64,000 bases of DNA, taken from positions 75,470-139,469 of the forward strand of contig CAZJKJ010000001.1 in NCBI GenBank assembly GCA_964546435.1. Reading direction: 5' to 3'. Below are positions 20,967 through 35,405 of the stretch, piece by piece. Below the pieces are notes generated by a model. It worked only from the letters and a program-made list of their open reading frames with translations. It ran no database searches and was not told the origin of the DNA. This DNA comes from an uncultured Cellvibrionaceae bacterium (lineage in GTDB: Bacteria; Pseudomonadota; Gammaproteobacteria; Pseudomonadales; Cellvibrionaceae). How positions within the stretch are numbered: the first letter of the stretch is position 1; each line of letters begins with the position of its first letter. The position numbers were made by a program, and so were the translations under genes.

Positions 20967-23573
20967 TCAAGCTATCGGGTTGGACATGTCAGTCACCACC
21001 AGCGGCTTTGCTGCCAGCGGCGCAGCCACTGGCGTCTTGATCAGCCATGGCGCAAAGACCGCGATCACAAACAATGACATAAGACCGCTTATAGCAAGCG
21101 AGGCAGACACCAGCGCACCCAAATGCACCACAGGTTCATACTCCGCCAGCAATAGCGACAAAAAGCCCAGGGAAAAGACAAGAACGTTAAACATGATCGA
21201 CTTGCCGGAACTGCGCACAGCCTGAATTATTGCATCATCCAACGGCAATTCAAGAACGTCGAGACCGTGGCGTATTCGCAGGTTGAAGTGCACCGCGTAA
21301 TCCACTATCCCCACAACCAGAAAGGCTATGATGGCCGTACCTATGTTCAGATCGATACCAGCCAATGGCATCATCCCGTAGAAAAAGACGAGTGTTACCG
21401 CCAACGGTAACGTCGTCATCAATGCGCTACGCAGTGATTTCATCCAGATCGCAACCACGACAAACACTGCGAACAAGGCCAGCAATGTGCTCTGCACCTG
21501 ACCGTTGAGAATTTCATCAAGAACACCGGTCCAGATTACCGGTGTGCCCGCGAGCGTTACGGTCAGATACTCCGGCTTGTTCTCGGCCAACCAGTCATTG
21601 AGCGTAGCCAGGAGAGCCTGGTATTGCGTCGCACGGGTGGTGTTCATGGTGAATAACACTGCCGTTTTGGAAAAATCACTGTTCAATACGTTGGTAAGAT
21701 CAGCACCGCCACCGTTTTCATAAAGCACAATTGACTGACGCACGATGTCATCACCGCGGACGGTTTCAGTCGTCACGTCACCGTTCTCGTCACGATCGCT
21801 AAAAATTTCCTCTGCGTCAGGTACGCGGTTGTAGGCGGGATTCATGTCATTCATAACATAGAAAATCCGCTTTATATAGGTTGCGAGTGAGTAGGTATAG
21901 GTCACGTTTTCCTGGGTCAGCAGAAATTTGTCCAGCTCGTCGATAAACTTCACTGTCTCTACCGAGAAAATTTCACTGTCTGATTGCGCTTCAAACATAA
22001 TCCAGCCCGGGCTGGTACCCGCTACATGGGAATTCACGAAGTCGTCCGATATTCGATACTGGTTGTCTGGTTTGAAATACTCCGCACCTGCATCTTCGAT
22101 ATTGATTCTGCTTGCGCTGGCTGCCGCACCTGCAAGTAATATAAAAAACCCGGCCATAGCCAGGCGACGATGCTGCAATAGACCTGACATAACACGGGCA
22201 AGAAACTCTGCCAGTCGGTCTGGACGTACCCGTTCCTTTTCACTGACGGGCTTTTTAGTCGCCCAGATGCTCAACCAGGCAGGAATCAGAAGCAGTGAGA
22301 TGATCTGCGCTGTTACCAATCCTGCCGCCATGTAAATTCCGAAGTTGCGAATGCCCTCAATATCGGTTGCGGACGACACAAGAAATGCGACCACGGTCGT
22401 AACTGTGGTCAAGAGAACCGGCGACACCATCACTCTCATCGTGTTGTCCACCGCTGCCCGGTTATCGATACCCGATTTTTTCTCTGAAAAGTATTCCGCC
22501 ATGATATGGATGGCATCGGCGCCGCAAATGGTAATGAGAAATACCGGCAACACGCTGGTGATCAAATCCAGCGGAGTGCCGAACAGTGCCATCATCCCGA
22601 GTGTCCAGATACTGCACATAATTACATTTATCAGCGGCAACGCAATGCCTAAAGGCTTTCTGAAAAATGCGATTAGAATGATCGCCACGATCAGGATAAC
22701 CAGGGGAAACAGGACGGCCATTTCCTTATCAATCAGGCGTTTTTGCTCCGCGAAAAAAATCGGTACGCCGGCTATATGAATCTGATCCGTAAATTCCGGA
22801 TGTCCTTGCTGATAATCCGCAACAATTTTTGAGAAAGCTCCGTAGGCACGTAACTGGCCTTCTGCATCATCCTGCTTTATACCCAGTTCGACGACAGTCA
22901 GCGCAACCTTTCCGTCCTCGGAAATGACGCCGTTCAACAGCATTTCGTTTTCCATAACTTCCCGGCGTACCGCGTCCGGATCTACCTCGAAACTGTTCAC
23001 GCTCGGTCTCGCGACGAGCGTGCCCTGTTCATCAATAAATATGTTTTCACTCGCCGCTATGCCGGCCAGTTCCTCTATTGGATTCAGCCTGTGCGGAAGA
23101 AATCTAAAAAAGCTCGATTCCGCTCGCTGCAAAGGCAGGGTACTCGCAACTTGTAACAGGCGCTGAGCGTCAAAAAAATCGCTTTGTTGAAAACCGTCGG
23201 CCAGTATGGCGTTGCCGATTTCCCCCAGCGCGGGGTACTTCTTTATCAAGGCTTCCAGCTGTCGCTGATCACTGTCGTTGGTCAATATCATGGTGCGCGA
23301 TGTTTGTGCAAAGTGAAACGCAGCGTGCAGAGACTCACGATTGAACACATCAATCTCGTTTACCTGAGCAATGAGAACCGCGTCAAATGTGCCGGTGAAC
23401 ATCGATTGCATGTCGATAATCGATTTCCGTGCGGGATGACTCTCTGGCAACAGGTATGGATTGCTATCCGCAGTTAATCCTCCCAGCGCATAGATAAAGA
23501 ACCCTGTTAGTATCGCGAGCCCGGCGAGGATCAGCTTTGCGAATTTGTGGACAAAATTCAGGTACCTGCTCAT
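20967..23573 (-). CDS. MMPL/RND-superfamily (HAE3-like) inner-membrane exporter
   Basis: 868 aa with two blocks of about 6 TM helices, each preceded by a large periplasmic loop. Adjacent to a LolA-like gene, as in aryl-polyene-type export modules. Confidence 0.8.
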   Translation of the reverse strand: MSRYLNFVHKFAKLILAGLAILTGFFIYALGGLTADSNPYLLPESHPARKSIIDMQSMFTGTFDAVLIAQVNEIDVFNRESLHAAFHFAQTSRTMILTNDSDQRQLEALIKKYPALGEIGNAILADGFQQSDFFDAQRLLQVASTLPLQRAESSFFRFLPHRLNPIEELAGIAASENIFIDEQGTLVARPSVNSFEVDPDAVRREVMENEMLLNGVISEDGKVALTVVELGIKQDDAEGQLRAYGAFSKIVADYQQGHPEFTDQIHIAGVPIFFAEQKRLIDKEMAVLFPLVILIVAIILIAFFRKPLGIALPLINVIMCSIWTLGMMALFGTPLDLITSVLPVFLITICGADAIHIMAEYFSEKKSGIDNRAAVDNTMRVMVSPVLLTTVTTVVAFLVSSATDIEGIRNFGIYMAAGLVTAQIISLLLIPAWLSIWATKKPVSEKERVRPDRLAEFLARVMSGLLQHRRLAMAGFFILLAGAAASASRINIEDAGAEYFKPDNQYRISDDFVNSHVAGTSPGWIMFEAQSDSEIFSVETVKFIDELDKFLLTQENVTYTYSLATYIKRIFYVMNDMNPAYNRVPDAEEIFSDRDENGDVTTETVRGDDIVRQSIVLYENGGGADLTNVLNSDFSKTAVLFTMNTTRATQYQALLATLNDWLAENKPEYLTVTLAGTPVIWTGVLDEILNGQVQSTLLALFAVFVVVAIWMKSLRSALMTTLPLAVTLVFFYGMMPLAGIDLNIGTAIIAFLVVGIVDYAVHFNLRIRHGLDVLELPLDDAIIQAVRSSGKSIMFNVLVFSLGFLSLLLAEYEPVVHLGALVSASLAISGLMSLFVIAVFAPWLIKTPVAAPLAAKPLVVTDMSNPIA

Positions 23574-23585: not shown

Positions 23586-24452
23586 TTATTTTATTAATAT
23601 TTTTCCGGATTTCAGCGCGGTCTTCAGCGCAGGGAGCGCAAACAATGCCTCATCGATCCCGACGTTGTATTTTACCTTCGAGAATATCAAGCGAGACTTG
23701 TCTCCCGAGACATGGTTAACCGCCTCGCTCGTCAGGACTGTCCATACTCCGTCGATTTCATCTACATCCAGGGCAGTAATGGTTTTAAAGGCGATACCCT
23801 TTACGTCAAAATAGGTCTCCCGCAACAGAATATTCCGTTCCTTGTCGACCCAGACAATGCCTTTGTGGTAGCCGGTTTTGCGGATGATCGCATCGGAAGC
23901 CGGTGTCCGCTCGATCTTATAGGAGGGACGCCCGCCAACCTCTTCCTCTCCAGCCAGTGTCTGCCGATAATCCCCGACACGCACCTTATCCAGATCAATG
24001 TATGCATATTCACTCCCCATAAACGCACCGCGTTTATCACTGGCCGACACTCTGCGGTTTTGCCTGAACGCCGGGAGATACATCCACTGGTCGGCCTCCT
24101 GCTGTTTGCTTTCCTCGTAATTGATCGTCTGGAAACCCACGCCCTTGACGTCGGCGGGACTGGTAAAATAAATCGCCATTGCTGAATCCTGGCCCTGGTC
24201 TTTTTGCAGGTAATACATTTCCCGTTTGCGAATCTTGCCTTTGCTGTCTTCCAGCTCCATCACGACCTCGGAGTAGATATCTTTGCCGTCATCACGGTCC
24301 CTGACCTGCTCCAGAATCTTGTCGGCAGTCGGAGGCGATGTCTTTGCGAAGTCGGCGGCGAGGGCGCCGGTCATCGAGAGTATGAGAGGGGCAAGCAACA
24401 GCGGACGCGCGCACCGAGACGAAATTCTCTTCATGGCAGAAGTTCTCTTCAT
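23586..24452 (-). CDS. LolA-like outer-membrane lipoprotein-sorting protein family
   Basis: Signal peptide, then the motif WMYLPAFRQNRRVSASDKRGAFMGSEYAYIDL, typical of the LolA_like family. An alternative ATG lies at 24434. Confidence 0.75.
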   Translation of the reverse strand: MKRTSAMKRISSRCARPLLLAPLILSMTGALAADFAKTSPPTADKILEQVRDRDDGKDIYSEVVMELEDSKGKIRKREMYYLQKDQGQDSAMAIYFTSPADVKGVGFQTINYEESKQQEADQWMYLPAFRQNRRVSASDKRGAFMGSEYAYIDLDKVRVGDYRQTLAGEEEVGGRPSYKIERTPASDAIIRKTGYHKGIVWVDKERNILLRETYFDVKGIAFKTITALDVDEIDGVWTVLTSEAVNHVSGDKSRLIFSKVKYNVGIDEALFALPALKTALKSGKILIK

Positions 24453-25663
24453 GGCAATAGGTATCCAATAGTCATTTTGATTCGGTCGGAGTCTGCGAAC
24501 TGCCCCATAAGGCTGCCGCGCTCCCCGGATAATAGGTCCAGTGCAAGTTCGACCTTTAAATGGTCGCTCAGGCTGTACGTGCTCTGGATCTGAAAGAGTG
24601 AATCCTCACCATGCGCCAGGAATTGTGCATGACTGATGCGGGCTTCGAGTTTGCCGTCGAGGATGATCCCCTGCAATGAGAGCGTCATGAGCGGGTTGTC
24701 CTCTGTCTGGGTAAAATCAGCTTGCCAGTCGTGCGTCAGACGATCGTTGTACTGAAAGGTCACCATCCAGTCCCGGATGAGGTAATCCCATCCGATCAGC
24801 CAGTTCGAAACATCACTTGTCGCGATGCTGCTGGCCGTGTTCATCGACATCCCCAGATTTCGCGCAACCTCTGCGCGAATAACGTGTCCGCCCAGTGCAA
24901 AACTGGTCGAGGCGCCCAGCATGTCGTAGCGGTGGAATTCCTCCTGCAAAACAAAGCTGTTCTCCGCCTGCATCACCAGCCGGTATACGGGATTGTCATC
25001 ATAGCTGCGCAGTGCAACGGCGCTGAAATCAAAACGGCCGAACTGGCGTGATACCCGTAACCCCGCTTCATCGCCCAGACTATCCGTGTCAGCTTCAATT
25101 ACCGGCATTGCCGCTACAACCGGATCACGACTGAACAAGGAAAATTCTGCTCCCTGCGCTGCCTGACGGTTTTCGCGGAATTCAGGGATGTATAAAATCT
25201 CGAGTTCCCAGTCGCTGATGTAGCCATTTACCTTCAGCATGGGAATCGCAAGCCGGCGTTCGCTCAATTCGGGCAATATGAATTCACGCAGATCCTCCGG
25301 ATTGACCTGATCTATGACCCGCAGCTCGTCGGCCCGCCCCCAGACAACCTGCTGCCATCCCAGAGCGAAATCCCATCCGTACATGCTGGTTCCGACATAC
25401 AGGTCGCGCCAGTCGAAATGGTCGGTGCGCTCACCGTCACTGGCGATTGCGTCCCAGCTGTCTTCCCGATACCGTGCAGCCGCAACCCAATAAAATTTAT
25501 CGTAGTGGTCTTCAGCCCCCAGACGGACGGTGAATTCCGAATGATCCGAAATCGCCATATCCTGAAGATTTCTGGAGACGCCGGCATCGATACGGCCTTG
25601 CAGATCCAGAGCCTGCGCGGATTGCACGACGCATATCATCCACACAAACCTCAGGCTCCGCAC
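24449..25663 (-). CDS. secreted protein, candidate outer-membrane beta-barrel (DUF1302-like)
   Basis: Signal peptide MRSLRFVWMICVVQSAQA. Alternating hydrophobic strands rich in aromatic and Gly residues. ATGA overlap with the LolA-like gene. Confidence 0.5.
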   Translation of the reverse strand: MRSLRFVWMICVVQSAQALDLQGRIDAGVSRNLQDMAISDHSEFTVRLGAEDHYDKFYWVAAARYREDSWDAIASDGERTDHFDWRDLYVGTSMYGWDFALGWQQVVWGRADELRVIDQVNPEDLREFILPELSERRLAIPMLKVNGYISDWELEILYIPEFRENRQAAQGAEFSLFSRDPVVAAMPVIEADTDSLGDEAGLRVSRQFGRFDFSAVALRSYDDNPVYRLVMQAENSFVLQEEFHRYDMLGASTSFALGGHVIRAEVARNLGMSMNTASSIATSDVSNWLIGWDYLIRDWMVTFQYNDRLTHDWQADFTQTEDNPLMTLSLQGIILDGKLEARISHAQFLAHGEDSLFQIQSTYSLSDHLKVELALDLLSGERGSLMGQFADSDRIKMTIGYLLP

Positions 25664-26397
25664 AGGCTGCCTCCGTCTACTACCCAGCTTTGCGCGGTAA
25701 TTCCGGCGGCTTGATCGCTGGCAAGAAAAGCCACGACGCTGGCCACCTCCCCGGAATCGATCAAGCGCCGCAGGGGTATCCGCTTTCGCGCCTGCCTTAT
25801 AACATTCCTCAAATCCGAGCCAATGGAATCGGCGCGATGCTGCAGCTCATCACGCAACATCGGTGTGTCAACCCAGCCGGGCAAAACCGCATTTACCGTA
25901 GTTCCTTGCGGTGCCAGATCAAGCGCAAGCGCTTTGGTAAATCCGATTAGCCCGTGCTTTGAGGCGCAGTAGGCGGTATTACGGGTGCCGCCAACCTTCC
26001 CCAGAACGGACGCAATATTTATGACGCGGCCATTAGGGGCAAGAAAAGGCAGCACACCGCTGGTTATATAGAACGCGCCGCTGAGATTAACGCCGATGAC
26101 GCGATTCCAGAGTTTACGGTCAGCCGGATCATTCTCGTCAGAAATGCCCGCACTGTTTACCAATATGTGCACCTGCCCAAATCTGCTTATGACGGGCAGC
26201 AAATCGGCGTCAATGTCCGCTGCATTGCTTACATCGAGACAGACGCAGGTGTGTTCGATCTGCAGTGAGGCGCTGAGTGATTCCAGGCGTTCTTCATTTT
26301 TATCAATGGCGATGACATGATCCACCGCATGTTGCAGTTGTGCAGTTATCGCTTCGCCTATGCCACTGGCTGCGCCAGTAATGACCAATACTTTCAT
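25651..26397 (-). CDS. SDR family oxidoreductase (ketoreductase-like)
   Basis: MKVLVITGAASGIGEAI (TGxxxGxG), NSAG, and YCASKHG (YxxxK). The ORF opens at 26421, but the ATG at 26397 has AAGGGA upstream. Confidence 0.85.
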   Translation of the reverse strand: MKVLVITGAASGIGEAITAQLQHAVDHVIAIDKNEERLESLSASLQIEHTCVCLDVSNAADIDADLLPVISRFGQVHILVNSAGISDENDPADRKLWNRVIGVNLSGAFYITSGVLPFLAPNGRVINIASVLGKVGGTRNTAYCASKHGLIGFTKALALDLAPQGTTVNAVLPGWVDTPMLRDELQHRADSIGSDLRNVIRQARKRIPLRRLIDSGEVASVVAFLASDQAAGITAQSWVVDGGSLCGA

Positions 26398-26420
26398 TGC
26401 ATTTTCCCTTTGCCCAAACA

Positions 26421-27161
26421 TCAGGCCATCTTCAGCCCGCCATTAACGTGCAGTATTTCGCCGGTTATATACGCTGCTTCATCACTGGCCAGATAGGCGA
26501 CCGCGCCGGCGATTTCATCGGGGCGCCCGTATCGCTTTGTCAGCAACCGGTTGAATATCTCGACTTCGCCAAGTTCACGCACTTGAGACGACATGTCGGT
26601 CGCAATGACTCCCGGTGCAACGGCATTGACCCGAATATTTCTGGGCGCCAGCTCGACCGCCATCGCTTTAGTAAACGATTCAAGACCTCCTTTTGAAGCG
26701 GCATAATTGGACTGCCCTTTGCCCGGCCGTGTCGCAGAAACTGACGAAATATTGACAATGCACCCCTGCCTGCGACGCATCATTGGCCGGGACGCGGCTT
26801 GTGTGCAGTAGATCGGACCCAGCAAATTCGCCTGTATTACGGCTTCCAGATCCGAAATATCCATCATGCTTAACAAATTGTCGCGGTTAATACCGGCGTT
26901 ATTAACGAGAACATCAATTTGTCCAAAGCGGTCAAGCGTGAAATCAATCAGCATCTGCGCTTCATCCGCGCAACTGACATCGGCTTTGCATTTAACCGCT
27001 TTGCCGTTTTTGCTTTCAATTTCGGCCACCACTTCCAGTGCAGCCATTTCGTGCCGGGCGTAGTTGACGATCACTTGATAGCCCAACCCGGACAGTCTGA
27101 TTGCAATTGCTTTGCCTATACCACGGCTCGCACCCGTTACAATCGCTATTTTGGGTAACAT
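26421..27161 (-). CDS. fabG: 3-oxoacyl-ACP reductase
   Basis: IAIVTGASRGIGKAIA, NNAGI, YAASKGG, 246 aa. Classic FabG layout. Confidence 0.85.
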   Translation of the reverse strand: MLPKIAIVTGASRGIGKAIAIRLSGLGYQVIVNYARHEMAALEVVAEIESKNGKAVKCKADVSCADEAQMLIDFTLDRFGQIDVLVNNAGINRDNLLSMMDISDLEAVIQANLLGPIYCTQAASRPMMRRRQGCIVNISSVSATRPGKGQSNYAASKGGLESFTKAMAVELAPRNIRVNAVAPGVIATDMSSQVRELGEVEIFNRLLTKRYGRPDEIAGAVAYLASDEAAYITGEILHVNGGLKMA

Positions 27162-27389: not shown

Positions 27390-30281
27390 TCACAGTGACG
27401 CATCCACCTTGATTGCTGCCAGACGGAAGCCGTGCAGCCGTGCATATTCGGCAATTTCTTTGACCTGACGCTTGGAGATGTCGCCGAAGGAGTAGCACCG
27501 GCTATAGCGGTTCATACCGAGAACCACACTCTCAGCCATACAGGCGTACAGCTCTCCCTCGCTCAGGAACGCGCGCGCGCGCGTATCCAGACTTTCGCCA
27601 TTGGGCGTCGCTACAATTCCGCCCTGCAGGTAACGCACGTCTGGCCGGCGCTGCCCAATGTCGGTCACAACGTTGTGCGGCACGGCAATATCGCAGACGA
27701 TCGCATTGGCCTTGAAGTGCTCGCTGTTCAGAAAGGCCTCTGGTGCATTGGCCGCGCACAAGACAATTTCACCTTTGCTCACTTCATGCAGACGGGAGGT
27801 GACGTGAAAAAATGGATCCTGGCCGAAATGCGCCACGATTTTTTCTGCGAGCACTCGGCCCGGATCTGGAATGGTCGGGTTGGCTACGACAAAAGACCTG
27901 ATTTCCGCAATTTCGGCGACGCGCGCGCCGATGCCCGAATGAACCAGGTTAGCGAGTATTTCTGCATAGATATCGTCGTAAATTTTGTGTACCGTTTTCC
28001 ACAAGCGGCGGTCGGAACCCTCTCTCTGGCTTCCGACCAGGCTTACTTTGGCCACCCTGTCACACAGCGTCGAGGTAAAGGTTGAGGCAATATTGCCGGC
28101 GGCCCCTACGACCACGAGATGCGCACTGGCCAGATCGATCCCGGCTTCGCGCGCGGCCTGTTCGATCGCCTCCAGGCCCATGGCGATGGTCAAGGCATTA
28201 CCGCTGGTAACGGCTGTGCCCCGTCTGGAGAGAGACTGCCCGTTATTGGTGACGATGGACGTGTACATCCCGAGCCCGACCACTTCACAACCGTCTTTCC
28301 GAGCGGCATTCAGTCGATCCTGTACCGCGTCCCTGATCGATTCCACGTCGCCCGAGCTCAGGTAATCCGACATTTGCCCGGAATCGACGCACAGCGGGTA
28401 GAGAATAAAATCAACGAGAGCACCGGTGGTCGACTGGATTCGAACCGGAGGAAACGGGGCTGCAGTCCGGTTGACTTCCATCCTGCCCACAAACTCACAG
28501 CACTCCTGCTCGGTCAGATCAGCCAGAGAAGGGTCTACCGCAATGAGGTCGTGCGCCTTGATCAGGTGATTGACGAAACCCACTTTCGTCACTTTCTGAC
28601 CGGCTGGCGTGGCCTGAAGCCCCAGATGCGTAGGCGCCGGGTTTGCCGGCCGGAAATCGTTGATTACAGCTCTCAGGGTACTTCTGCGGCAATTAATGGC
28701 TGCGGCAACAAATGGCAGAGCGTCGGCGTTTCGCAGTGCAAGACATAGCTGCTCGAACGACAAAAATATTTTCTGGATATTGTCATCGGCGAGAAACGCC
28801 GAAGGTTCAATACGAATGACATTCGACGCACTCGCGGGTGCGGAGACACGGATGCCATGCCGGTGCAACAGAAACCCCGCCATCAGGTATCCCAGCGATT
28901 TAGAATAGGCGGCCCCGCGAATGATCATCGACGGCGACTGGCGCTGATCGTAGAACTCGATACCAAGAAGCAGGCCCCGGCCCCGGACTGACTTGATCAA
29001 CTCCGGATATTCATTTTGCAACCGAGCGAATCCTTCCTGCAGACTGGCGCCCGCCAGCGATATCTGGCGATACAGTGCGCCTTCGTTCTGTTCCAGCAGT
29101 TCCAGCGTCTTCAGTGCAATTGTGGAGCTGAAATCGTCTTCGGCGAAGGTCGAACTGTGAATCAGTGAAAAATTTTCCTCGTACAGTGTCTTCCGGATCG
29201 CCGTCGCCGCTATTTTTGCAATTCCGCCTCCCAGGGACTTTGACAACGCGTAGTAATCACCCGTGAGTTGCAAGTGACTGCTGGCGAGAAAACGCCCACT
29301 GCGTCCCATCCCGCTCTGGATTTCATCCACTATCAAGGGACACTTCTGCTGGTTGCAAAACCGCTTCAGCGCGAGTGCAAAGTCGCGCTCAAGCAGGTTG
29401 ATGCCACCCTCCCCTTGTATCGGTTCAATCACGACAGCGGTAAACATCGGCAATGGTGTTTCAGTCAAAACGGCAACGCCGTTCCTGACTTTCAGGCCAT
29501 AGAGATAGCGATCCTTTTGTTGCTCCGCCAAACGGCCCAGCTCTGCCTCGTCGCCAGCTCTGACAAACCGGACGTTCAGGCCGAGTGACTTGAACGGCGC
29601 GCGGTAGTTTTCTCCATACGTCAGTTGCACACTGCCCATCAGCTTACCGTGAAAGGAGTTTTCCAGCGCCACAATGACGGGGGGATGCTGCAGTTGACCT
29701 GCATTGAACGCGGTCAAGGCCATGGCCGCATGATCGACACCCTGAATCTTTTCGAACATGCCGACCAGCTCAGTTTTGCGGAACAGATCCTCAGGGATTA
29801 CCAGACCGACGTCGGCAACCGCCAGCCTGATTTCATCCAGTTCATCCTCAAGGTTTTCGATAATCTTCTGCAGGCGTAGTACCCGTGCCAGTTCGGCATG
29901 CTTCAACGCGACTTCAATGGCTTCGGCACCGCTATTTGAAAAGGTGGTAATAAAACCTTCCTGCAGCCCGGTCTCGCATTGAAGTATCCCGCTCAACATT
30001 TCGGCCAGAGCACCGGATACCCGCCGCTCGGAAAACTGGGCATGCACCACCCCTTGCCGATCCAGAAATGCCTTGGCCGCATTTACCAGTTCGGGGTGGT
30101 TGTGCCCCAGAATCGTAGCGCCGTAGCCGCCGAGCAGATCCAAAACCGGAACTTCCCTATCCGCTTCATCCCGATAAAAGAGGGTGTCACCTTCGGCACG
30201 GCAGTAGGCAACATCCTGCCCAAGTGCTTTGAGTACCTGTGCAAGCCTGGGCTTCACGAATTGTCCGTAGGGGGTTGGCAT
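27390..30281 (-). CDS. bifunctional fusion: class-III PLP aminotransferase (about residues 1-520) plus acyl-ACP reductase-like NAD(P)H domain (about residues 563-963)
   Basis: N-terminal part has GHNHPELV, DEIQSGMGRSGRF and YALSKSLGGG (Schiff-base Lys348). The C-terminal part is collinear with cyanobacterial AAR as I remember it: VGFVNHL vs FGLIGHL, GLGMYTSIV vs LGGFTSII, TSGNALT...HLVVVGAAGNIAS vs TTGNTHT...TVAVVGATGDIGS, and LYACMAESVVL vs MFACFAEAMLL (catalytic Cys conserved). Confidence 0.8.
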   Translation of the reverse strand: MPTPYGQFVKPRLAQVLKALGQDVAYCRAEGDTLFYRDEADREVPVLDLLGGYGATILGHNHPELVNAAKAFLDRQGVVHAQFSERRVSGALAEMLSGILQCETGLQEGFITTFSNSGAEAIEVALKHAELARVLRLQKIIENLEDELDEIRLAVADVGLVIPEDLFRKTELVGMFEKIQGVDHAAMALTAFNAGQLQHPPVIVALENSFHGKLMGSVQLTYGENYRAPFKSLGLNVRFVRAGDEAELGRLAEQQKDRYLYGLKVRNGVAVLTETPLPMFTAVVIEPIQGEGGINLLERDFALALKRFCNQQKCPLIVDEIQSGMGRSGRFLASSHLQLTGDYYALSKSLGGGIAKIAATAIRKTLYEENFSLIHSSTFAEDDFSSTIALKTLELLEQNEGALYRQISLAGASLQEGFARLQNEYPELIKSVRGRGLLLGIEFYDQRQSPSMIIRGAAYSKSLGYLMAGFLLHRHGIRVSAPASASNVIRIEPSAFLADDNIQKIFLSFEQLCLALRNADALPFVAAAINCRRSTLRAVINDFRPANPAPTHLGLQATPAGQKVTKVGFVNHLIKAHDLIAVDPSLADLTEQECCEFVGRMEVNRTAAPFPPVRIQSTTGALVDFILYPLCVDSGQMSDYLSSGDVESIRDAVQDRLNAARKDGCEVVGLGMYTSIVTNNGQSLSRRGTAVTSGNALTIAMGLEAIEQAAREAGIDLASAHLVVVGAAGNIASTFTSTLCDRVAKVSLVGSQREGSDRRLWKTVHKIYDDIYAEILANLVHSGIGARVAEIAEIRSFVVANPTIPDPGRVLAEKIVAHFGQDPFFHVTSRLHEVSKGEIVLCAANAPEAFLNSEHFKANAIVCDIAVPHNVVTDIGQRRPDVRYLQGGIVATPNGESLDTRARAFLSEGELYACMAESVVLGMNRYSRCYSFGDISKRQVKEIAEYARLHGFRLAAIKVDASL

Positions 30282-30296: not shown

Positions 30297-31553
30297 TCAA
30301 TATTCTGGTGAAAGTTTTTCGAGGAGGACGCCTGATACAGCGTTCGTCTGCTCCCGGTTAAGTACCAGGGCACCGGTACAGGCATACGACCGGCTCTTAC
30401 CGGCGATAAAGTTCAGGTCGTAGCTGATGGGCTTTTGCAGCGCGGACATTGCAGGAATACTTTGATTCTTTAACGCCAGTGACGCGGCCACGACCGACAG
30501 CAGCCCGCGTGCCGGCCCCAGTACACCGGTCGGACCGTTGACGCAGGTTGTTCTGACGTCGGGCAGCACACGTGCAATTTCCCGGGCGGTTTGCTGATCC
30601 TGCTCAGGTACTCCGATTCCGTCAGCGACGATAAAGTCGGCGGCCGGGCTTCCAGCGAGGTTTGCCATCAGCGCTGGAAAAATCGCTCCGCCCCTGCTCA
30701 TGACATCCGCCGTGCTCGCGATGGAACGCACACAGATATCACTGTTCTGCCCACGATACGCGCTCCTTTCTGCGCGTTCGAGCACAAGCGCACAGGCGCC
30801 GTCCGCCAGAATCAGGCCGTCCGCAGTCTGGTCAAATGGTCTGCACACGGTTCCTCGCGCCCGCCCCTGCTGAATGAAGTGGGCGAGCGTGTTCGGGTTG
30901 AGGTAGCTTCCGGTTGCAATCACCACGGCGACATCGGCGCTTGCCGACCCGAGCGCGGCCACCGCGGCGTTCAGGGCCGCCGTGGCCGCGATGGCATCTC
31001 CCGTGAAAGATCCGCAATCACCTCTGAGACCCAGAGAAATACTGGCCATGCCGAGCACGTTGTTGTCCAGCGACTTGATTACCGTAAACGGGTCTGCGCC
31101 CCGGCGCTGCATAAAGCATTCTGTAAGGAAAGGCCGGTCATGCAGTGCGCCGCGATCGCTGGCGGTCTTCAACCCGTCGATCAGGCTGAAAATGCCCGGA
31201 TGCAGATAGTCGTAGGACGCAGTGAAAATGCCGATTCTCTCCGGTGGACAGTCGCCCGCCCGCAGACCGGCATCACGCAATGCCTGTTCGGCGGCTGATA
31301 CTCCCCATAAACTGGAATCCAGCGCAAACCGTCTCTGTTTACGTGGCACCAAGTCTCGACCAGCCTGCGTTTGCCGCTCGCTGATATGGCCGTAGCGGGT
31401 GATCGTTTCGCTGCGCATGCGGGCGCACTCAAATGGACTGGTCAAGTCTTTTCCGGATTCCAGCGCTTGCCACCAGTCTTCAAGACCAGTGCTACCCGGC
31501 AGCACGCAGCCCATACCCGAAATCACCACTGAGCCGTCTCTAACTGGCTGCAT
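30297..31553 (-). CDS. beta-ketoacyl synthase-like protein lacking active-site Cys (chain-length-factor type)
   Basis: Thiolase-fold KS similarity. Where the KS motif xACxx sits, the sequence reads GSFTGDAIAAT. 14-nt overlap with the upstream KS. Confidence 0.7.
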   Translation of the reverse strand: MQPVRDGSVVISGMGCVLPGSTGLEDWWQALESGKDLTSPFECARMRSETITRYGHISERQTQAGRDLVPRKQRRFALDSSLWGVSAAEQALRDAGLRAGDCPPERIGIFTASYDYLHPGIFSLIDGLKTASDRGALHDRPFLTECFMQRRGADPFTVIKSLDNNVLGMASISLGLRGDCGSFTGDAIAATAALNAAVAALGSASADVAVVIATGSYLNPNTLAHFIQQGRARGTVCRPFDQTADGLILADGACALVLERAERSAYRGQNSDICVRSIASTADVMSRGGAIFPALMANLAGSPAADFIVADGIGVPEQDQQTAREIARVLPDVRTTCVNGPTGVLGPARGLLSVVAASLALKNQSIPAMSALQKPISYDLNFIAGKSRSYACTGALVLNREQTNAVSGVLLEKLSPEY

Positions 31554-32823
31554 AAGGCGCCACCACCAGGCTGGTATTCAGGCCGCCAAAACCAAAGGAA
31601 TTAGTCATGGCGTGGCGTATTTTCATGGGCCGGGCCTGTAGAGGGACGTAGTCCAGATCACAGCCATCGTCAGGATTGTCCAGATTGAGGGTGGGAGGCG
31701 CCGTCTGTTGCTCAACTGCCAGAACCGTCGCCACAAACTCCGCCGCACCTGCAGCCGCAATCAGGTGGCCTATATGAGCCTTGATCGAGGAAACGGCGAG
31801 CTGCCGGTAATGCTGTGCTTCCGCAAATACTGATTTAATCGCCAGCGTTTCGGCCAGATCGTTAAGTGGCGTCGAGGTACCATGGGCGTTGATGTAATCG
31901 ATGGATGCAGGCGGGAGACCTGCCTGCCCGAGGGCCCGTGACATGGCGCGTGCCTGCCCTTCTCCTTCAGGGTGCGGCGCGGTAATCTTGTAAGCGTCCA
32001 TGGACGCACCATAGCCGAGAACCTCGGCATAAACTCGCGCACCGCGCCTACGTGCATGTGATTCGCTTTCAAGCACCACCATCGCTCCGCCTTCACCCGC
32101 TACAAGCCCACTGCGATCACGGTCAAACGGTCGGCACAGGCGTTCTGCGAGCGTTTCTTTGGTTGACGGTGCGCCCAACAGGTAAAGGCCGATCATTGTG
32201 ACGGTGTTAAGCACTGAATCCGCTCCGCCTGCCAGCATCACAGAGGTTTCGCCTCTGCGGATCATCCGGGAAGCAATGCCGATCGCCTGCGCTGCGCCCG
32301 CGCAGGCCGTACTAATATTCAGCACCGGTCCGGTTATGCTGAATTCCCTGGCCAAAGTGACACCAAGGTGATCATTGCTCAGCCAGGTACCGGAATTCTT
32401 ATCTGCCTGAATCCGGTTGTCCCACCAGCGATTCCAGTCCAGCCCCGAGCGGGTGTAAGCTGCGATGTCAAACGCTTCATCCCGCTCTGGCACACCAGAA
32501 CCGACAATGACACCTGCGGAGCGGGACCGGCGTGCGGCATCGGTCAAACCCGCGTCACGCAATGCCTCTGCGGCGGCGACCAGTCCGAAGGCCGTCCGCT
32601 TTTCCATGTTGTGTGCTAAAGCAGAATAATCGGCAAACTGCTCGCGAAAGCGCTGCCAATCCACCTCGGCCACGTAAGAAACCGGCAGGCCCTTGGCGAT
32701 GCCCCCCGGCCAGTGTCGTATGGCGGACTCACCGGCGATCATCTTTCGCCAAAAATCTGCGGCATTGTTGGCTAGACCGTTAACCGAGCCTAAACCGGTG
32801 ACGAACACGCGTTCATGTTTCAT
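31540..32823 (-). CDS. beta-ketoacyl-ACP synthase (KAS II-like, catalytic)
   Basis: MKHERVFVTGLG, active-site NISTACAGAAQAI, His motifs INAHGTSTPLND and KAHIGHLIAAAG. Its ATG shares one nt with the upstream stop (TAATG). Confidence 0.9.
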   Translation of the reverse strand: MKHERVFVTGLGSVNGLANNAADFWRKMIAGESAIRHWPGGIAKGLPVSYVAEVDWQRFREQFADYSALAHNMEKRTAFGLVAAAEALRDAGLTDAARRSRSAGVIVGSGVPERDEAFDIAAYTRSGLDWNRWWDNRIQADKNSGTWLSNDHLGVTLAREFSITGPVLNISTACAGAAQAIGIASRMIRRGETSVMLAGGADSVLNTVTMIGLYLLGAPSTKETLAERLCRPFDRDRSGLVAGEGGAMVVLESESHARRRGARVYAEVLGYGASMDAYKITAPHPEGEGQARAMSRALGQAGLPPASIDYINAHGTSTPLNDLAETLAIKSVFAEAQHYRQLAVSSIKAHIGHLIAAAGAAEFVATVLAVEQQTAPPTLNLDNPDDGCDLDYVPLQARPMKIRHAMTNSFGFGGLNTSLVVAPYAAS

Positions 32824-33962
32824 TATTGATTCCACCCCAGGATCACGACGGCGCACTGGCCCGAGAAGCCCTGAGCGGATACGAGTGCATAATGGATCTG
32901 CCGACTGGCTTCACGAACGCAGTCGGATGAGTCGGTGAACAAGCACATTCCACGGCGGCAGGCGTCCTGGATAAGTGCGATCTTGACCCAGGGGCTCGCA
33001 GCCCCAAAGTGTCCCGCAAGGTGATCGATCGTCAGTAGTGGCAGAGTTTCTGAGGAACGGCTTCCGAGTTGTGCCAGCGCGCGGCGCATATCGGCCTGGC
33101 TGCCACCGACGACCGATGGATGTTCCAGTGCCAGGAGGTCCAGATCATCGAAGGCAATGCCTGCCTGCTCCAATGCCTGCTTTATCGCTTCAGGTGCAGC
33201 ATCCGACGGGTCTTCGTTGAAACACCGGCCATAACCCGCAATAAACAGCGACCGGGGCTTTTCCACATCAGACAGTAATGCCACCGCTGCGCTTTCGGCG
33301 GGAACCAGCAACGGCTCACGATTGAACATTTCCGCTGACTCCCAGACAGGTGCCAGACCCGGGCCGGCAACCGGGCTTACGCCACCCGCCAGCACCTGAA
33401 TCGAGTCATTTTCGAAAATCGCCAGACTGCCCTCAATCAATGCCTGCAATCCCGCATCGGCATGATCCGAAAATCCGCCGACTGCTCCTGATAAATGAAA
33501 ATGCTCGGCGAGATGCGCCAGTACACTTGAATTCAACAGCCTCAGCCCGGACAGGGGTTCGGTATTGCGCAAAATCGATGCAGTGATTTCTCTTGCTGAA
33601 ATCGATGTCTCGATTTTTAAATCAAGGCAACTGTCGACCGCGTGAGCGATGCTGGGTATCGCGAAAAAAAGGCCGGTGTCCTCTGGCGCTCGCAATTCAA
33701 AGTGCTCGTCACGCTGCAGCTCGATTGCAGCCCAGATCGCCGCCGCTGCCTGTCTCTCCATCATTCGCAGGCTTTTCCGGTTTATCCCCATCCTGTCGAG
33801 TTGCGGCAGCGAGAGTTTGAAACCATGCGTGAGCGGTCCTACCGCCGGTTGCAGGCGCGTTGGCGTTTCGCGTGGATTGAGCAGCTGCGTCAACAAGCCG
33901 TCCAGACCTTTCCCCCAAGGCGTTACAACGCTCAGTGCCTCAATGAAAATTCGCTTTTTCAC
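32823..33962 (-). CDS. beta-ketoacyl synthase-like protein, non-catalytic
   Basis: KS-like N-terminus (IFIEALSVVTPWG) and thiolase-fold length. There is no Cys at the nucleophile position (FSDHADAGLQAL) and no HGT/GH motifs. Confidence 0.65.
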   Translation of the reverse strand: MKKRIFIEALSVVTPWGKGLDGLLTQLLNPRETPTRLQPAVGPLTHGFKLSLPQLDRMGINRKSLRMMERQAAAAIWAAIELQRDEHFELRAPEDTGLFFAIPSIAHAVDSCLDLKIETSISAREITASILRNTEPLSGLRLLNSSVLAHLAEHFHLSGAVGGFSDHADAGLQALIEGSLAIFENDSIQVLAGGVSPVAGPGLAPVWESAEMFNREPLLVPAESAAVALLSDVEKPRSLFIAGYGRCFNEDPSDAAPEAIKQALEQAGIAFDDLDLLALEHPSVVGGSQADMRRALAQLGSRSSETLPLLTIDHLAGHFGAASPWVKIALIQDACRRGMCLFTDSSDCVREASRQIHYALVSAQGFSGQCAVVILGWNQ

Positions 33963-35224
33963 GTCACCGCCTCCAAAACAATAGATGCATTTTCGCCACC
34001 GAAGCCAAAGCTGTTGGACAGGATTCGTTTCACAACCCGTTCCTCTTCAGTGCGCGTAAATGGCAGTGAAAATTGACTTTCAAGCGGCTTATCCAGATTG
34101 AGGACCGGCGGTATTTTTGCTTGTTGCAAAACCATTATTGAAAGTGCGGCTTCAACTACGCTGCTGGCGCCCAGCGAATGCCCGAAGTTTGATTTGTTCG
34201 CGGTGATCGTAATATTGTCCAGGTTTGTGCCGAATAACTGCCCTATCGCAAGCGCTTCGCTGCGATCGTTCACCGGAGTAGAGGTACCGTGAGCATTAAC
34301 ATGGTCAATTTCTGTGACCTGCAGACCCACATTGTCTAGGCAGGCGCGCATGCACCGCAGATATTCCTCGCCACCTTCCGCAGTCGCGGTCATTTTGAGG
34401 GCCTCGGCCATTTTGGCTCCGCCTTTAAGGCGGGCCAAAGGTCGGCCGGCATCCGCGGCTCGCTGCAATATAAGACAACCAGCTGCTTCACCCATTACAA
34501 AACCAGACCGCGCTTCATCAAACGGCCGGCTAAGCGTGTCAGGCGGGTTTGAGTCGCTTCGCGCCAAAGCGCCGAGCAGTCCGAAAAAAAGCAAAGCAAT
34601 ATAGTTGGCCATGGCATCAACCCCCGCAACCACGGCAATATCAATCTGGTGATCCAGCAACGCACGCTGTGCGTTAAGCAAGCCGAAATTGCCTGCGGCG
34701 CAGGCGTCACTGTTCGACATGATCAACGCGCAGTTCGTGAATCGGCTCGCCAGCAACTGCGCTGGATAATCGGAGCGCAGTGCGAGATTGTTTGTCACAT
34801 TTCCGGCGTTTCTCGTTCGCGCCAGTGCGTCCAGGTCGAAACAGTCATCGGCATCATTGAAGCAGGAATAGGCGGTGACGATATCGTCTAAATCCTCGCT
34901 GATGCGATTGCTGCCAACAAACACACCGACCCTCTGCTCATGTATTTCCAGTCCGCTACTTTCGATTGCCCTGTGGGCGACCTCAAGAAGCAGGGCTGCA
35001 TTGCTTCCCAAACTGTCGGCGGGCGCGCACTGCACCCACTTTTGTTTCAGCGCTTCAATATATTGCGGATCAAAATGCGAAGTGGAAGAAAATGGGAGAT
35101 GAGCTGCCTCAAGTGGCAGATTCTGTCGCACGGCGGTTTGTCCGGCACATACCTGCGAGAAGGTGTGTGCAATATTATCCGAAAGGGGCGTGAGTACCTC
35201 TAAACCGACGATGGCGACATCCAT
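33959..35224 (-). CDS. beta-ketoacyl-ACP synthase (catalytic)
   Basis: MDVAIVGLEVLTP from the ATG at 35224 (the ORF opens at 35323). Active-site SNSDACAAGNFGL, VNAHGTSTPVND and KSNFGHSLGASS. Confidence 0.85.
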   Translation of the reverse strand: MDVAIVGLEVLTPLSDNIAHTFSQVCAGQTAVRQNLPLEAAHLPFSSTSHFDPQYIEALKQKWVQCAPADSLGSNAALLLEVAHRAIESSGLEIHEQRVGVFVGSNRISEDLDDIVTAYSCFNDADDCFDLDALARTRNAGNVTNNLALRSDYPAQLLASRFTNCALIMSNSDACAAGNFGLLNAQRALLDHQIDIAVVAGVDAMANYIALLFFGLLGALARSDSNPPDTLSRPFDEARSGFVMGEAAGCLILQRAADAGRPLARLKGGAKMAEALKMTATAEGGEEYLRCMRACLDNVGLQVTEIDHVNAHGTSTPVNDRSEALAIGQLFGTNLDNITITANKSNFGHSLGASSVVEAALSIMVLQQAKIPPVLNLDKPLESQFSLPFTRTEEERVVKRILSNSFGFGGENASIVLEAVT

Positions 35225-35405
35225 GCGTTTAGTCTCAGGTTTGCACTGCTGGTTATAGAATGGTTGATTAATCGACCGAATAATCACCACGGATACTCCG
35301 AAACCTGACCGAGGTTGCTTCACGTCTGAACCTGGTCAGTTTGCCCGAGGTAATAATTTTTAATCTGAACCGCGGCTGTTCGCGCTTTCTGGCGAAATAA
35401 CCAAG

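What the first reader, a model, noticed from the sequence alone, without database searches (positions are those of the whole stretch)
27390..30281. 963-aa fusion of a class-III PLP aminotransferase with a cyanobacterial-type acyl-ACP reductase-like domain
Residues about 1-520 carry class-III aminotransferase signatures. These include DEIQSGMGRSGRF and the Schiff-base lysine in YALSKSLGGG.

Residues about 563-963 (nt 27393-28595) align block by block with my recollection of Synechococcus AAR, the alkane-pathway acyl-ACP reductase. The matching blocks include the Rossmann segment VVVGAAGNIAS and the segment LYACMAESVVL. That second segment matches MFACFAEAMLL, which holds the catalytic acyl-thioester cysteine.

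An AAR makes a fatty aldehyde from acyl-ACP. A fused aminotransferase would convert that aldehyde directly to a fatty amine. Thioester-reductase plus aminotransferase logic is known from PKS/NRPS termination. An AAR-type domain in that role, fused to the aminotransferase and outside cyanobacteria, is unusual to my knowledge.
Basis: partly seen in the sequence, partly recalled or inferred. Interest (0 to 1): 0.85.

Follow-up and report, generated by a model that had tools for sequence, protein, structure and literature searches.

The report
KecF-type aminotransferase–reductase, koreenceine-like cluster
The 963-residue protein really is an aminotransferase fused to an acyl-ACP-reductase-like domain, but it is an ordinary member of the published KecF/PP_2782 family and sits in a complete 11-gene koreenceine-type alkaloid gene cluster.

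Summary
ORF 27390-30281 (-) encodes 963 aa. Its N-terminal half is a class-III PLP aminotransferase (Pfam E 4.6e-61; best solved relative CrmG, E 1.7e-103; PLP Lys348). Its C-terminal domain's best matches are the PigE reductase domain and Synechococcus AAR (profile E 1.6e-28 and 3.7e-20; Foldseek top hit 6JZU, TM 0.76). Cys914 aligns with AAR Cys294. Shikimate dehydrogenase is only a marginal Rossmann match.

The claim of rarity is wrong. The same fusion is KecF of Pseudomonas koreensis (2019), PP_2782 of P. putida KT2440 (2024; 44% identical to the window protein end to end) and PtTamH (2022, where the acyl-ACP-to-amine conversion was shown). PigE carries the same two domains in reverse order.

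The window holds the whole kecA-K set in the published order: ACP, two KS/CLF pairs, KecF, two SDRs and a three-gene exporter. The same order is found in Cellvibrio, Pseudomonas, Pseudoalteromonas, Photobacterium and Tahibacter. The host looks like a Cellvibrionales-type gammaproteobacterium.

The likely product is a 2-alkyl-tetrahydropyridine alkaloid related to koreenceine, but the exact structure is unknown. This is a new, divergent (about 50% identity) member of a known kind, of low interest.

The parts
27390..30281 (-). kecF-like gene: 963-aa aminotransferase + AAR-type thioester reductase fusion
   Evidence: ORF. It is 44% identical over its full length to P. putida KT2440 PP_2782 (P0155). 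The 120 best homologues listed are near full length (95-100% of the query covered).
28704..30281 (-). N-terminal class-III (omega) transaminase domain, residues about 1-526
   Evidence: Pfam Aminotran_3 E 4.6e-61, residues 28-511. The best solved relative is the aldehyde-aminating CrmG, 5DDS, E 1.7e-103 over residues 17-521.
29238..29240 (-). Codon of Lys348, the PLP Schiff-base lysine (in ALSKSLG)
   Evidence: Translation. The column is invariant in 24 homologues.
28596..28703 (-). Interdomain linker, residues about 527-562
   Evidence: Poorly conserved stretch in alignment A1. Its position matches the 527-562 linker defined for PP_2782 (PMC10829540).
27393..28595 (-). C-terminal AAR-type NAD(P)H thioester reductase domain, residues 563-963
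   Evidence: PDB single-sequence and profile searches. TIGR04058 E 3.4e-19 and PigE model E 9.9e-33. AlphaFold2 model with pLDDT 88.1. The top Foldseek hits are AAR structures 6JZU, 6JZY and 6JZQ, E about 1e-19, TM 0.76.
28083..28106 (-). Nucleotide-binding motif GAAGNIAS (Gly726-Ser733)
   Evidence: Translation. Conserved as G(A/G/S)AGN(I/V)(A/G) in 22 of 24 homologues.
27540..27542 (-). Codon of Cys914, the predicted acyl-thioester catalytic cysteine
   Evidence: Translation. It aligns with AAR Cys294 and is conserved in 22 of 24 homologues.
35406..35990 (-). kecA-like acyl carrier protein (DLDLDSL motif) with a C-terminal Cys-rich extension
   Evidence: PP-binding E 1.1e-8. DSL motif found. 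Same position and size (152-192 aa) in related loci. tblastn gives 36-38% identity to the Cellvibrio and Pseudomonas genes.
33959..35323 (-). kecB-like ketosynthase (KS alpha)
   Evidence: Pfam ketoacyl-synt N and C domains. DACAAG Cys, HGTST and GHSLG are visible in the sequence. Syntenic.
32823..33962 (-). kecC-like chain-length-factor-like protein (no catalytic triad)
   Evidence: No Pfam or NCBIfam hit. No Cys/His/His motifs. Syntenic homologue of the second gene in all compared loci.
31540..32856 (-). kecD-like ketosynthase (FabF-like)
   Evidence: fabF model E 7.6e-117. TACAG, HGTST and GHLIAAAG motifs. 47-56% identity to homologues.
30297..31553 (-). kecE-like chain-length-factor-like protein
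   Evidence: Only the N-terminal KS domain is detected. No catalytic motifs. Syntenic.
26421..27161 (-). kecG-like FabG-type ketoreductase
   Evidence: 3-oxoacyl-ACP reductase model E 7e-80. 46-55% identity to homologues.
25651..26421 (-). kecH-like SDR reductase
   Evidence: adh_short_C2 E 1.9e-53. 39-50% identity to homologues.
24449..25663 (-). kecI-like DUF1302/porin-like outer-membrane protein
   Evidence: DUF1302 E 8.1e-15. Syntenic, 31-37% identity.
23586..24452 (-). kecJ-like LolA-like lipoprotein-sorting-fold protein
   Evidence: LolA_like E 4.7e-49. 45-50% identity.
20967..23573 (-). kecK-like MMPL/RND (HAE3-type) exporter
   Evidence: MMPL E 2.5e-30 and the HAE3 model. 45-53% identity.

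Best explanation
The gene is an orthologue of kecF (P. koreensis) and PP_2782 (P. putida). It is the chain-release and amination enzyme of a koreenceine-type, non-canonical type II polyketide pathway.

Proposed mechanism:
1. The ACP (KecA) carries a medium-chain acyl starter. Two KS/CLF pairs (KecB/C and KecD/E) extend it by malonyl units. The two SDRs (KecG and KecH) adjust the oxidation state.
2. The C-terminal AAR-type domain of KecF takes the acyl chain from the ACP phosphopantetheine onto Cys914. It reduces the thioester with NAD(P)H and releases an aldehyde.
3. The N-terminal omega-transaminase domain (PLP on Lys348) converts the aldehyde to a primary amine, with an amino acid as donor. 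The aldehyde is probably channelled within the homodimer.
4. The amine condenses spontaneously with a remaining keto group to give a 2-alkyl-tetrahydropyridine (cyclic imine) alkaloid.
5. KecI, KecJ and KecK export the alkaloid.

Shown here: domain identity, catalytic residues, fold, orthology and gene order.

Shown in the literature for homologues:
- The cluster is required for koreenceine production (P. koreensis).
- PP_2782 has transaminase activity.
- PtTamH converts acyl-ACP to amine.

Inferred: the reductase activity of this protein, the starter and chain length, and cyclisation in this organism.
For: Domains:
- Aminotran_3 E 4.6e-61.
- CrmG is the best solved relative of the N-terminal domain, E 1.7e-103.
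- The C-terminal domain matches PigE and AAR far above any other PDB family and matches TIGR04058.
- The AlphaFold2 model (pLDDT 88.1) has AAR structures as top fold hits, TM 0.76.

Catalytic residues:
- Lys348 is invariant in 24 homologues.
- Cys914 and the GxxGN motif are kept in 22 of 24.
- Cys914 aligns with AAR Cys294.

Orthology: 44% identity over the whole length to PP_2782. P0155 was identified as AAN68390.1 of KT2440.

Gene order:
- All eleven genes occur in the published kecA-K order.
- They are collinear by tblastn with Cellvibrio (L082) and Pseudomonas (L083), and for ten genes (kecB-K; kecA gave no hit at 1e-5) with Pseudoalteromonas (L085).
- The same gene calls appear in L086, L087 and L088.
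- KecB and KecD keep the Cys-His-His triad while KecC and KecE lack it, as described for the kec cluster.

Literature: PMC6498172 (kec cluster, koreenceines A-D, KecF proposal); PMC10829540 (PP_2782); PMC9594044 (PtTamH); PMC12490732 (the KT2440 cluster matches the koreenceine PKS).
Against: - No product has been observed for this organism.
- The window proteins are only 26-56% identical to the Pseudomonas ones. Starter, chain length and final structure could therefore differ.
- Thioester reductase activity has not been shown in vitro for any KecF-clade protein. Only the transaminase activity of PP_2782 was assayed, and PtTamH is a more distant relative (28-32% identity to PP_2782 and its homologues according to PMC10829540).
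- I could not obtain the P. koreensis CI12 KecF sequence itself for a direct comparison.
- No dehydratase or enoyl reductase is encoded in the cluster. Part of the chemistry must rely on housekeeping FAS enzymes or is not yet understood.
Confidence: 0.85

Rival explanations
1. TamH-like role. The enzyme makes a linear alkyl- or alkenyl-amine from a fatty acyl-ACP. That amine is then condensed with a bipyrrole aldehyde (MBC) to give a tambjamine-type pigment.
For: - The domain order is the same as PtTamH, for which acyl-ACP to amine conversion was demonstrated.
- A second lipid/polyketide-like gene set lies 5 kb away. It includes an acyl-CoA dehydrogenase, an AMP-ligase and a KS didomain that weakly hit the PigA and PigJ models.
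Against: - The PigA and PigJ hits are far below their cut-offs (55.7 vs 500 bits; 71 vs 900 bits).
- No PigC/TamQ, PigH, PigF or PigM equivalents were seen.
- There is no TamA-like ANL-ACP next to the gene.
- The gene sits in a complete kecA-K operon, and housekeeping rdgC and hrpB lie between the two gene sets.
- The closest homologues all sit in kec-type clusters.
Confidence: 0.04
2. The cluster makes an acyclic amino-lipid or polyamine-like lipid destined for the outer membrane. In this reading the transaminase may also aminate beta-keto positions, as in zeamine/fabclavine logic. The LolA-like, MMPL and DUF1302 proteins would act as a lipid-localisation system rather than as a drug exporter.
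For: - The LolA-like + MMPL + DUF1302 trio resembles the lipid-export modules of aryl-polyene-type clusters (my own knowledge).
- The sequences are strongly diverged from the Pseudomonas ones.
- No product is known outside Pseudomonas.
Against: - The same three export genes belong to the P. koreensis cluster that makes secreted koreenceines.
- No PUFA-type synthase is present.
- Gene content is identical to the characterised cluster.
Confidence: 0.08
3. The C-terminal domain is a generic amino-acid, shikimate or saccharopine-type dehydrogenase, not a thioester reductase. Alternatively, the fusion is an assembly artefact joining two genes.
For: - A weak Pfam Shikimate_DH hit, E 4.4e-4.
- Automated annotations call the domain a 'predicted amino acid dehydrogenase' (COG5322).
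Against: - The Shikimate_DH score is below the gathering threshold (20.8 vs 24.3) and covers only residues 795-877.
- PDB profile hits to PigE and AAR are 17 or more orders of magnitude better than the next family.
- Foldseek gives AAR E about 1e-19 and TM 0.76, against shikimate DH E about 1e-5 and TM 0.3-0.46.
- The catalytic Cys is conserved.
- Near full-length homologues (95-100% coverage) occur across many independent genomes.
Confidence: 0.02

Closest known systems
KecF of the koreenceine (kecA-K) cluster, Pseudomonas koreensis CI12 (Lozano et al. 2019, PMC6498172), and its P. putida KT2440 orthologue PP_2782 'PpKTFusion' (Prout, Hailes & Ward 2024, PMC10829540)
   Same: - Same length: 963 aa here, 956-959 aa in the published proteins.
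- Same domain order (transaminase then AAR), a linker at the same position, and the same catalytic Lys and Cys.
- 44% identity to PP_2782 from end to end.
- The same 11-gene operon in the same order.
   Different: - The host is a Cellvibrionales-like gammaproteobacterium, not Pseudomonas.
- Proteins of the cluster are only 26-56% identical to the Pseudomonas ones.
- The nearest KecF homologue from a different organism is about 50% identical.
- The product is unknown.
PtTamH, tambjamine YP1 pathway, Pseudoalteromonas tunicata (PMC9594044)
   Same: An N-terminal class-III transaminase fused to a C-terminal AAR-type thioester reductase, with a GxxGxxG motif and a catalytic Cys. It was shown to turn ACP-bound acyl groups into primary amines.
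   Different: - The partner is the ANL-ACP fusion TamA, and the context is a bipyrrole (MBC) cluster. Neither is present here.
- It is more distant in sequence (28-32% to PP_2782 and its homologues according to PMC10829540).
- Its product stays linear.
PigE, prodigiosin MAP pathway, Serratia (PDB 4PPM; PMC8341465)
   Same: - The same two domains and the same reduce-then-transaminate logic, with the product cyclising to a cyclic imine (H2MAP).
- It is the best NCBIfam and PDB hit for the window's C-terminal domain.
   Different: - The domain order is reversed (reductase N-terminal, transaminase C-terminal).
- The score is far below the PigE equivalog cut-off (319.7 vs 850 bits).
- There is no PigD or PigB context.
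Cyanobacterial acyl-ACP reductase (AAR, Synechococcus elongatus orf1594; PDB 6JZQ/6JZU/6JZY)
   Same: - The fold (TM 0.76).
- A Rossmann motif.
- An acyl-accepting Cys at the aligned position.
   Different: - About 18% identity in the structural alignment.
- Far below the TIGR04058 cut-off (69.4 vs 449.7 bits).
- The domain is fused to a transaminase instead of partnering with the aldehyde-deformylating oxygenase.
- It carries extra helical insertions (residues about 755-830).
Separate TR-domain + transaminase release in type I PKS alkaloid pathways (coelimycin and cyclizidine type), and the carmabin 'terminal amidation domain' (PDB 9E4S/9E4X; bioRxiv 10.1101/2024.10.28.620694)
   Same: Reductive or related off-loading from a carrier protein, followed by introduction of nitrogen. 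The carmabin TAD is the second-best structural neighbour of the window domain.
   Different: - The type I PKS TR domains are SDR-type, not AAR-type, and the transaminase is a separate protein (as stated in PMC6498172).
- The TAD is embedded in an NRPS and has only 13% identity.

Membership tests
KecF / PP_2782-type transaminase-AAR fusion (koreenceine-type clusters) | N-terminal class-III PLP transaminase domain with the Schiff-base lysine | tested here: met
   Aminotran_3 E 4.6e-61. CrmG E 1.7e-103. Lys348 is invariant.
KecF / PP_2782-type transaminase-AAR fusion (koreenceine-type clusters) | C-terminal AAR-type (COG5322) domain with a nucleotide-binding glycine motif and a catalytic Cys | tested here: met
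   GAAGNIAS and Cys914 are conserved in 22 of 24 homologues.
KecF / PP_2782-type transaminase-AAR fusion (koreenceine-type clusters) | Collinear full-length homology to a characterised member | tested here: met
   44% identity and 58% positives over 971 columns to PP_2782 (P0155 = AAN68390.1). The P. koreensis CI12 sequence itself was not available.
KecF / PP_2782-type transaminase-AAR fusion (koreenceine-type clusters) | Located between kecE (CLF-like) and kecG (FabG-like) within a kecA-K operon: ACP, KS, CLF, KS, CLF, F, SDR, SDR and three export genes | tested here: met
   Searches give the domain content. One search gives collinear tblastn hits in L082 and L083, and for kecB-K in L085. Searches show the same gene calls in six proteobacterial loci.
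KecF / PP_2782-type transaminase-AAR fusion (koreenceine-type clusters) | The cluster yields tetrahydropyridine alkaloids, and the enzyme performs thioester reduction then transamination | not testable with these tools
   This needs metabolite analysis and enzyme assays. It rests on the literature for homologues.
Cyanobacterial long-chain acyl-ACP reductase (TIGR04058 equivalog) | Score at or above the curated equivalog cut-off | tested here: not met
   69.4 bits against a 449.7 cut-off. The domain is homologous but is not an AAR orthologue.
Cyanobacterial long-chain acyl-ACP reductase (TIGR04058 equivalog) | AAR fold with the acyl-accepting Cys (Cys294 in S. elongatus) | tested here: met
   Foldseek 6JZU E 2.5e-19, TM 0.76 relative to the target. 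Cys914 aligns with Cys294.
Cyanobacterial long-chain acyl-ACP reductase (TIGR04058 equivalog) | Stand-alone protein paired with an aldehyde-deformylating oxygenase | tested here: not met
   The domain is fused to a transaminase. None of the neighbouring genes scanned is an ADO-like ferritin-fold protein.
PigE (prodigiosin MAP aminotransferase, NF053554) | Reductase domain N-terminal and transaminase C-terminal; score at or above the 850-bit cut-off | tested here: not met
   The domain order is reversed. The score is 319.7 bits in 4 stretches.
PtTamH (tambjamine alkylamine synthase) | Transaminase-AAR domain order | tested here: met
   and the description of PtTamH in PMC9594044.
PtTamH (tambjamine alkylamine synthase) | Works with the TamA ANL-ACP fusion inside an MBC bipyrrole cluster | tested here: not met
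   No ANL-ACP fusion or MBC genes lie in or next to the operon. The distant PigA/PigJ-like hits are far below cut-off.
Shikimate/quinate dehydrogenase (PF01488) | Pfam gathering score reached; shikimate-DH fold is the best structural match | tested here: not met
   20.8 bits against 24.3, on residues 795-877 only. Foldseek E about 1e-5 and TM 0.3-0.46, far behind AAR.

The most novel reading that the evidence does not exclude
Every protein in this Cellvibrionales-type cluster is only 26-56% identical to its Pseudomonas counterpart. KecF forms a lineage about equally distant (about 50% identity) from the pEAF66/Cellvibrio, Streptomyces and Pseudomonas clades. The pathway might therefore use a different starter or number of extensions. 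It would then give an alkaloid or amino-lipid distinct from koreenceines A-D, possibly with a different ecological role in an aquatic polysaccharide degrader.
Probability: 0.3. Interest if true: 0.35.

Novelty: new member of a known kind. Interest (0 to 1): 0.15.

Why it matters
The finding has limited importance. It extends the known range of koreenceine-type clusters to another, so far unnamed, Cellvibrionales-like lineage. It also adds a divergent natural transaminase-reductase fusion to a family that interests biocatalysis groups for one-pot conversion of fatty acids or thioesters to amines. It does not reveal a new enzyme architecture or new chemistry. The reduce-then-aminate fusion has been described, named and partly characterised since 2019-2024.

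Tried and rejected
1. The first genome-contig scan used the single protein and found no relatives.

2. The second scan used alignment A1, but its two patterns were generic class-III transaminase motifs. It returned mostly unrelated aminotransferases. Only L001 (Streptomyces yunnanensis, kecA-H present), L002, L006 and L007 were close to full-length relatives (L013 matched only the transaminase part).

3. I considered that the low-GC gene set at 41-64 kb might be an MBC bipyrrole pathway, which would make the enzyme TamH-like. I rejected this because the PigA and PigJ model scores are far below their cut-offs and the other MBC genes are absent. That set looks more like an aryl-polyene/flexirubin-type lipid cluster.

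4. I considered zeamine/fabclavine-type polyamine synthesis because of the Xenorhabdus homologues. I rejected it because the Xenorhabdus locus (L084) is a kecA-H type cluster with discrete KS/CLF genes, not a PUFA-type synthase.

5. I could not name the organism from the look-ups. The records gave only an NCBI contig of 154,932 bp and an SRA-derived contig. Taxonomy was inferred from YgiQ homologues only.

6. I did not obtain the P. koreensis CI12 KecF or the PtTamH sequences for direct pairwise comparison.


Full report
**1. Observation**

The minus strand carries one uninterrupted ORF at 27390-30281 (963 aa, ATG start). Their key residues map as follows:
- Lys348 in ALSKSLG: codon 29238-29240.
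- GAAGNIAS, Gly726-Ser733: nt 28083-28106.
- Cys914 in LYACMAE: codon 27540-27542.

Pfam assigns residues 28-511 to class-III aminotransferases (E 4.6e-61). On the C-terminal part it sees only a sub-threshold Shikimate_DH match, 20.8 bits against a 24.3 cut-off, on residues 795-877.

**2. Nature of the two domains**

The N-terminal 530 residues are closest among solved structures to CrmG, the aldehyde-aminating omega-transaminase of caerulomycin biosynthesis (E 1.7e-103). Next come PigE and the putrescine aminotransferase YgjG.

The C-terminal domain (residues 563-963) gives these matches:
- As a single sequence: the N-terminal reductase domain of PigE (PDB 4PPM, E 9e-17) and Synechococcus acyl-ACP reductase (6JZQ, E 4e-10).
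- As a profile of twelve homologous C-terminal domains (A2): 1.6e-28 and 3.7e-20, while the next PDB family (malate/lactate dehydrogenases) is at 0.011.
- In NCBIfam: the PigE model (E 9.9e-33) and TIGR04058 AAR (E 3.4e-19), with glutamyl-tRNA reductase a distant third.

An AlphaFold2 model of residues 556-963 reached mean pLDDT 88.1 and pTM 0.87. Its best Foldseek matches in the PDB are the four AAR entries 6JZU, 6JZY, 6JZZ and 6JZQ (E 2.5e-19 to 7e-17, TM 0.76 relative to the target). The carmabin 'terminal amidation domain' follows. Shikimate dehydrogenases, FolD and glutamate dehydrogenases appear only at E about 1e-5 with TM 0.3-0.46.

In the HMMER alignment the window's Cys914 falls on AAR Cys294. 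I counted this from the chain numbering. PMC9594044 describes Cys294 as the acyl-accepting residue.

In an alignment of 24 full-length homologues, Lys348 is invariant. Cys914 and the G-x-x-G-N motif are kept in 22 of them.

**3. It is not a sequencing artefact and not rare**

A search of the 5.8-billion-protein collection returned 1551 proteins at E <= 1e-10. The 120 best are 910-1022 aa long and cover 95-100% of the query. They come from Pseudomonas, Xenorhabdus, Streptomyces, Cellvibrio, Photobacterium, Pseudoalteromonas, Tahibacter and many metagenomes. Two Pseudomonas clusters alone hold 468 and 365 member sequences.

**4. Genomic context**

All neighbours on the same strand form one operon-like block from 35990 down to 20967:

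| Gene | Coordinates | Evidence |
|---|---|---|
| ACP with a DLDLDSL motif and a Cys-rich C-terminal extension | 35406-35990 | |
| Ketosynthase | 33959-35323 | |
| KS-like protein with no detectable family | 32823-33962 | |
| FabF-like ketosynthase | 31540-32856 | |
| Second KS-like protein | 30297-31553 | |
| The fusion protein | 27390-30281 | |
| FabG-type reductase | 26421-27161 | |
| SDR reductase | 25651-26421 | |
| DUF1302/porin-like protein | 24449-25663 | |
| LolA-like protein | 23586-24452 | |
| MMPL/RND transporter | 20967-23573 | |

The first and third KS genes keep the Cys-His-His catalytic residues. The second and fourth do not, so they are chain-length-factor-like.

Flanking genes are housekeeping: YgiQ radical SAM on one side; a flavodoxin-like quinone reductase, rdgC and hrpB on the other.

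**5. Identification**

The literature search shows that this is the koreenceine (kec) cluster type.

Lozano et al. 2019 (PMC6498172) described an 11-gene cluster in Pseudomonas koreensis:
- kecA: ACP.
- kecB and kecD: KS alpha.
- kecC and kecE: partial KS / CLF.
[quoted passage not shown] COG5322 at the C terminus', explicitly compared with cyanobacterial acyl-ACP reductases.
- kecG and kecH: reductases.
- kecIJK: export.

A kecF transposon mutant and a kecA-K deletion lose the antibiotic activity. The products are the tetrahydropyridine alkaloids koreenceine A-D, analogues of plant gamma-coniceine. That study counted 179 such clusters, including partial ones (without kecIJK) in Xenorhabdus and Streptomyces.

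Prout, Hailes and Ward 2024 (PMC10829540) characterised the P. putida KT2440 orthologue PP_2782:
- It is 959 aa, with the transaminase at 1-526, a linker at 527-562 and the reductase at 563-959.
- They showed its transaminase activity.
- They recognised the fused domain as an AAR.
- They listed 230 comparable clusters, including Cellvibrio, Pseudoalteromonas, Photobacterium and the metagenomic antifungal clone pEAF66.

Other published relatives:
- PtTamH of the tambjamine pathway has the same domain order. It was shown to convert ACP-bound acyl chains to amines (PMC9594044).
- PigE has the two domains in reverse order and is now regarded as a reductase-transaminase (PMC8341465).

**6. Direct tests of membership**

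- The window protein aligns with PP_2782 (P0155 = AAN68390.1, found) over its entire length, at 44% identity and 58% positives.
- tblastn of the eleven window proteins gives collinear hits in the same order for all eleven in Cellvibrio fibrivorans (L082) and Pseudomonas sp. (L083). In Pseudoalteromonas (L085) ten genes hit (kecB-K); kecA gave no hit at 1e-5.
- In Streptomyces yunnanensis (L001) all eight of kecA-H hit. In Xenorhabdus (L084) kecB-H hit, and an ACP gene is called at the kecA position.
- Independent gene calls show the same 11-gene layout in a Pseudomonadota MAG (L086), Tahibacter amnicola (L087) and Photobacterium (L088).

Identities to the Pseudomonas proteins range from 26% (KecC) to 51% (KecG). 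The nearest KecF homologues from other organisms are only about 50% identical: a Noviherbaspirillum MAG, pEAF66, Cellvibrio and Chitinolyticbacter. The window therefore carries a divergent lineage of the family.

The host is probably a Cellvibrionales-like gammaproteobacterium. The best named homologues of its YgiQ protein are from Agaribacterium, Marinagarivorans and Saccharophagus, at 73-75% identity.

**7. Mechanism**

The best-supported reading is the published one.
1. KecA-bound polyketide or fatty intermediates are built by the two KS/CLF pairs and trimmed by KecG and KecH.
2. The intermediate is transferred to Cys914 of the AAR-type domain.
3. It is reduced by NAD(P)H to an aldehyde.
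4. The CrmG-like domain transaminates the aldehyde, with PLP on Lys348.
5. The amino-ketone cyclises spontaneously to a 2-alkyl-tetrahydropyridine.
6. KecIJK export the product.

What I showed here is domain identity, catalytic residues, fold, orthology and synteny. What is known from homologues is the genetic requirement for koreenceine, the transaminase activity of PP_2782, and the acyl-ACP-to-amine conversion by PtTamH. The following are inferred:
- the reductase activity of this protein (not yet shown in vitro for any KecF-clade enzyme);
- the starter and chain length;
- the final structure.

**8. Rivals**

- A TamH-like role in tambjamine synthesis is unlikely. There is no TamA-like partner and no MBC genes. 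The gene set at 41-64 kb hits the PigA and PigJ models only far below cut-off, and housekeeping genes separate it from the kec cluster.
- An outer-membrane amino-lipid or polyamine product cannot be excluded. However, the same export genes accompany secreted koreenceines in P. koreensis.
- A generic dehydrogenase domain or an assembly artefact is excluded.

**9. Verdict**

The finding is a new, divergent member of a known kind and deserves a low interest score.

Noticed in passing
window 41234-62605 (minus strand): A second lipid/polyketide-like gene set lies in a region of clearly lower G+C (0.45-0.48, against 0.55-0.60 to the left). It holds an asparagine synthase, a GT2 glycosyltransferase, a FabH-like KSIII, an AMP-dependent ligase, an ABC-2 transporter pair, a 629-aa acyl-CoA dehydrogenase, a 798-aa KS/KS-like didomain, a FabG/FlxB-like reductase and a LolCE-like permease. 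It resembles aryl-polyene/flexirubin-type clusters rather than a bipyrrole pathway. It may be a horizontally acquired island.
   Followed up: partly
window 36173-36754 (minus strand): A flavodoxin-like FMN/NAD(P)H quinone reductase (Flavodoxin_2, E 1e-40) lies next to kecA. Homologues lie beside the kec-type cluster in Cellvibrio (66% identity), Pseudomonas sp. HLS-6 (63%) and Xenorhabdus (30%). None is present in the Pseudoalteromonas, Tahibacter, Photobacterium, MAG L086 or Streptomyces loci. It is more conserved than any kec protein. It could be an accessory tailoring or self-protection gene, or the adjacency could be coincidence.
   Followed up: partly
window 35406-35990 (minus strand): The KecA-like ACP is 194 aa, about twice the normal ACP size. 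It has a C-terminal extension carrying CPECGH...CASCSS, a possible Cys4 zinc ribbon. Homologues of 152-192 aa occupy the same position in all related loci. The P. putida counterpart PP_2777 was noted to have 'an unusual predicted structure' and did not work with FAS enzymes (PMC12490732).
   Followed up: no
P0104 (Sphaerisporangium sp.) and P0120 (Streptomyces caeruleatus), alignment A1: Two actinobacterial full-length homologues have lost the AAR catalytic cysteine (Ala or Gly in its place) and have a degenerate nucleotide-binding motif. They keep the PLP lysine. In these lineages the reductase domain may be inactive or repurposed.
   Followed up: no
model m54286ef8ed2e vs PDB 9E4S/9E4U/9E4X/9E50/9E56: The second-best structural neighbours of the C-terminal domain are the 'TAD' domains of the carmabin NRPS/PKS pathway (E about 1e-16, TM about 0.6). 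A 2024 preprint describes them as putative terminal amidation domains related to AAR. AAR-like domains are therefore also used in assembly-line termination.
   Followed up: no
window 32823-33962 (minus strand): The KecC-like protein has no Pfam or NCBIfam hit at all. It is nevertheless conserved at this position in every related cluster, at 25-33% identity. Some homologues show a weak ketoacyl-synt match. It is a very divergent chain-length-factor-like protein that current family models miss.
   Followed up: partly
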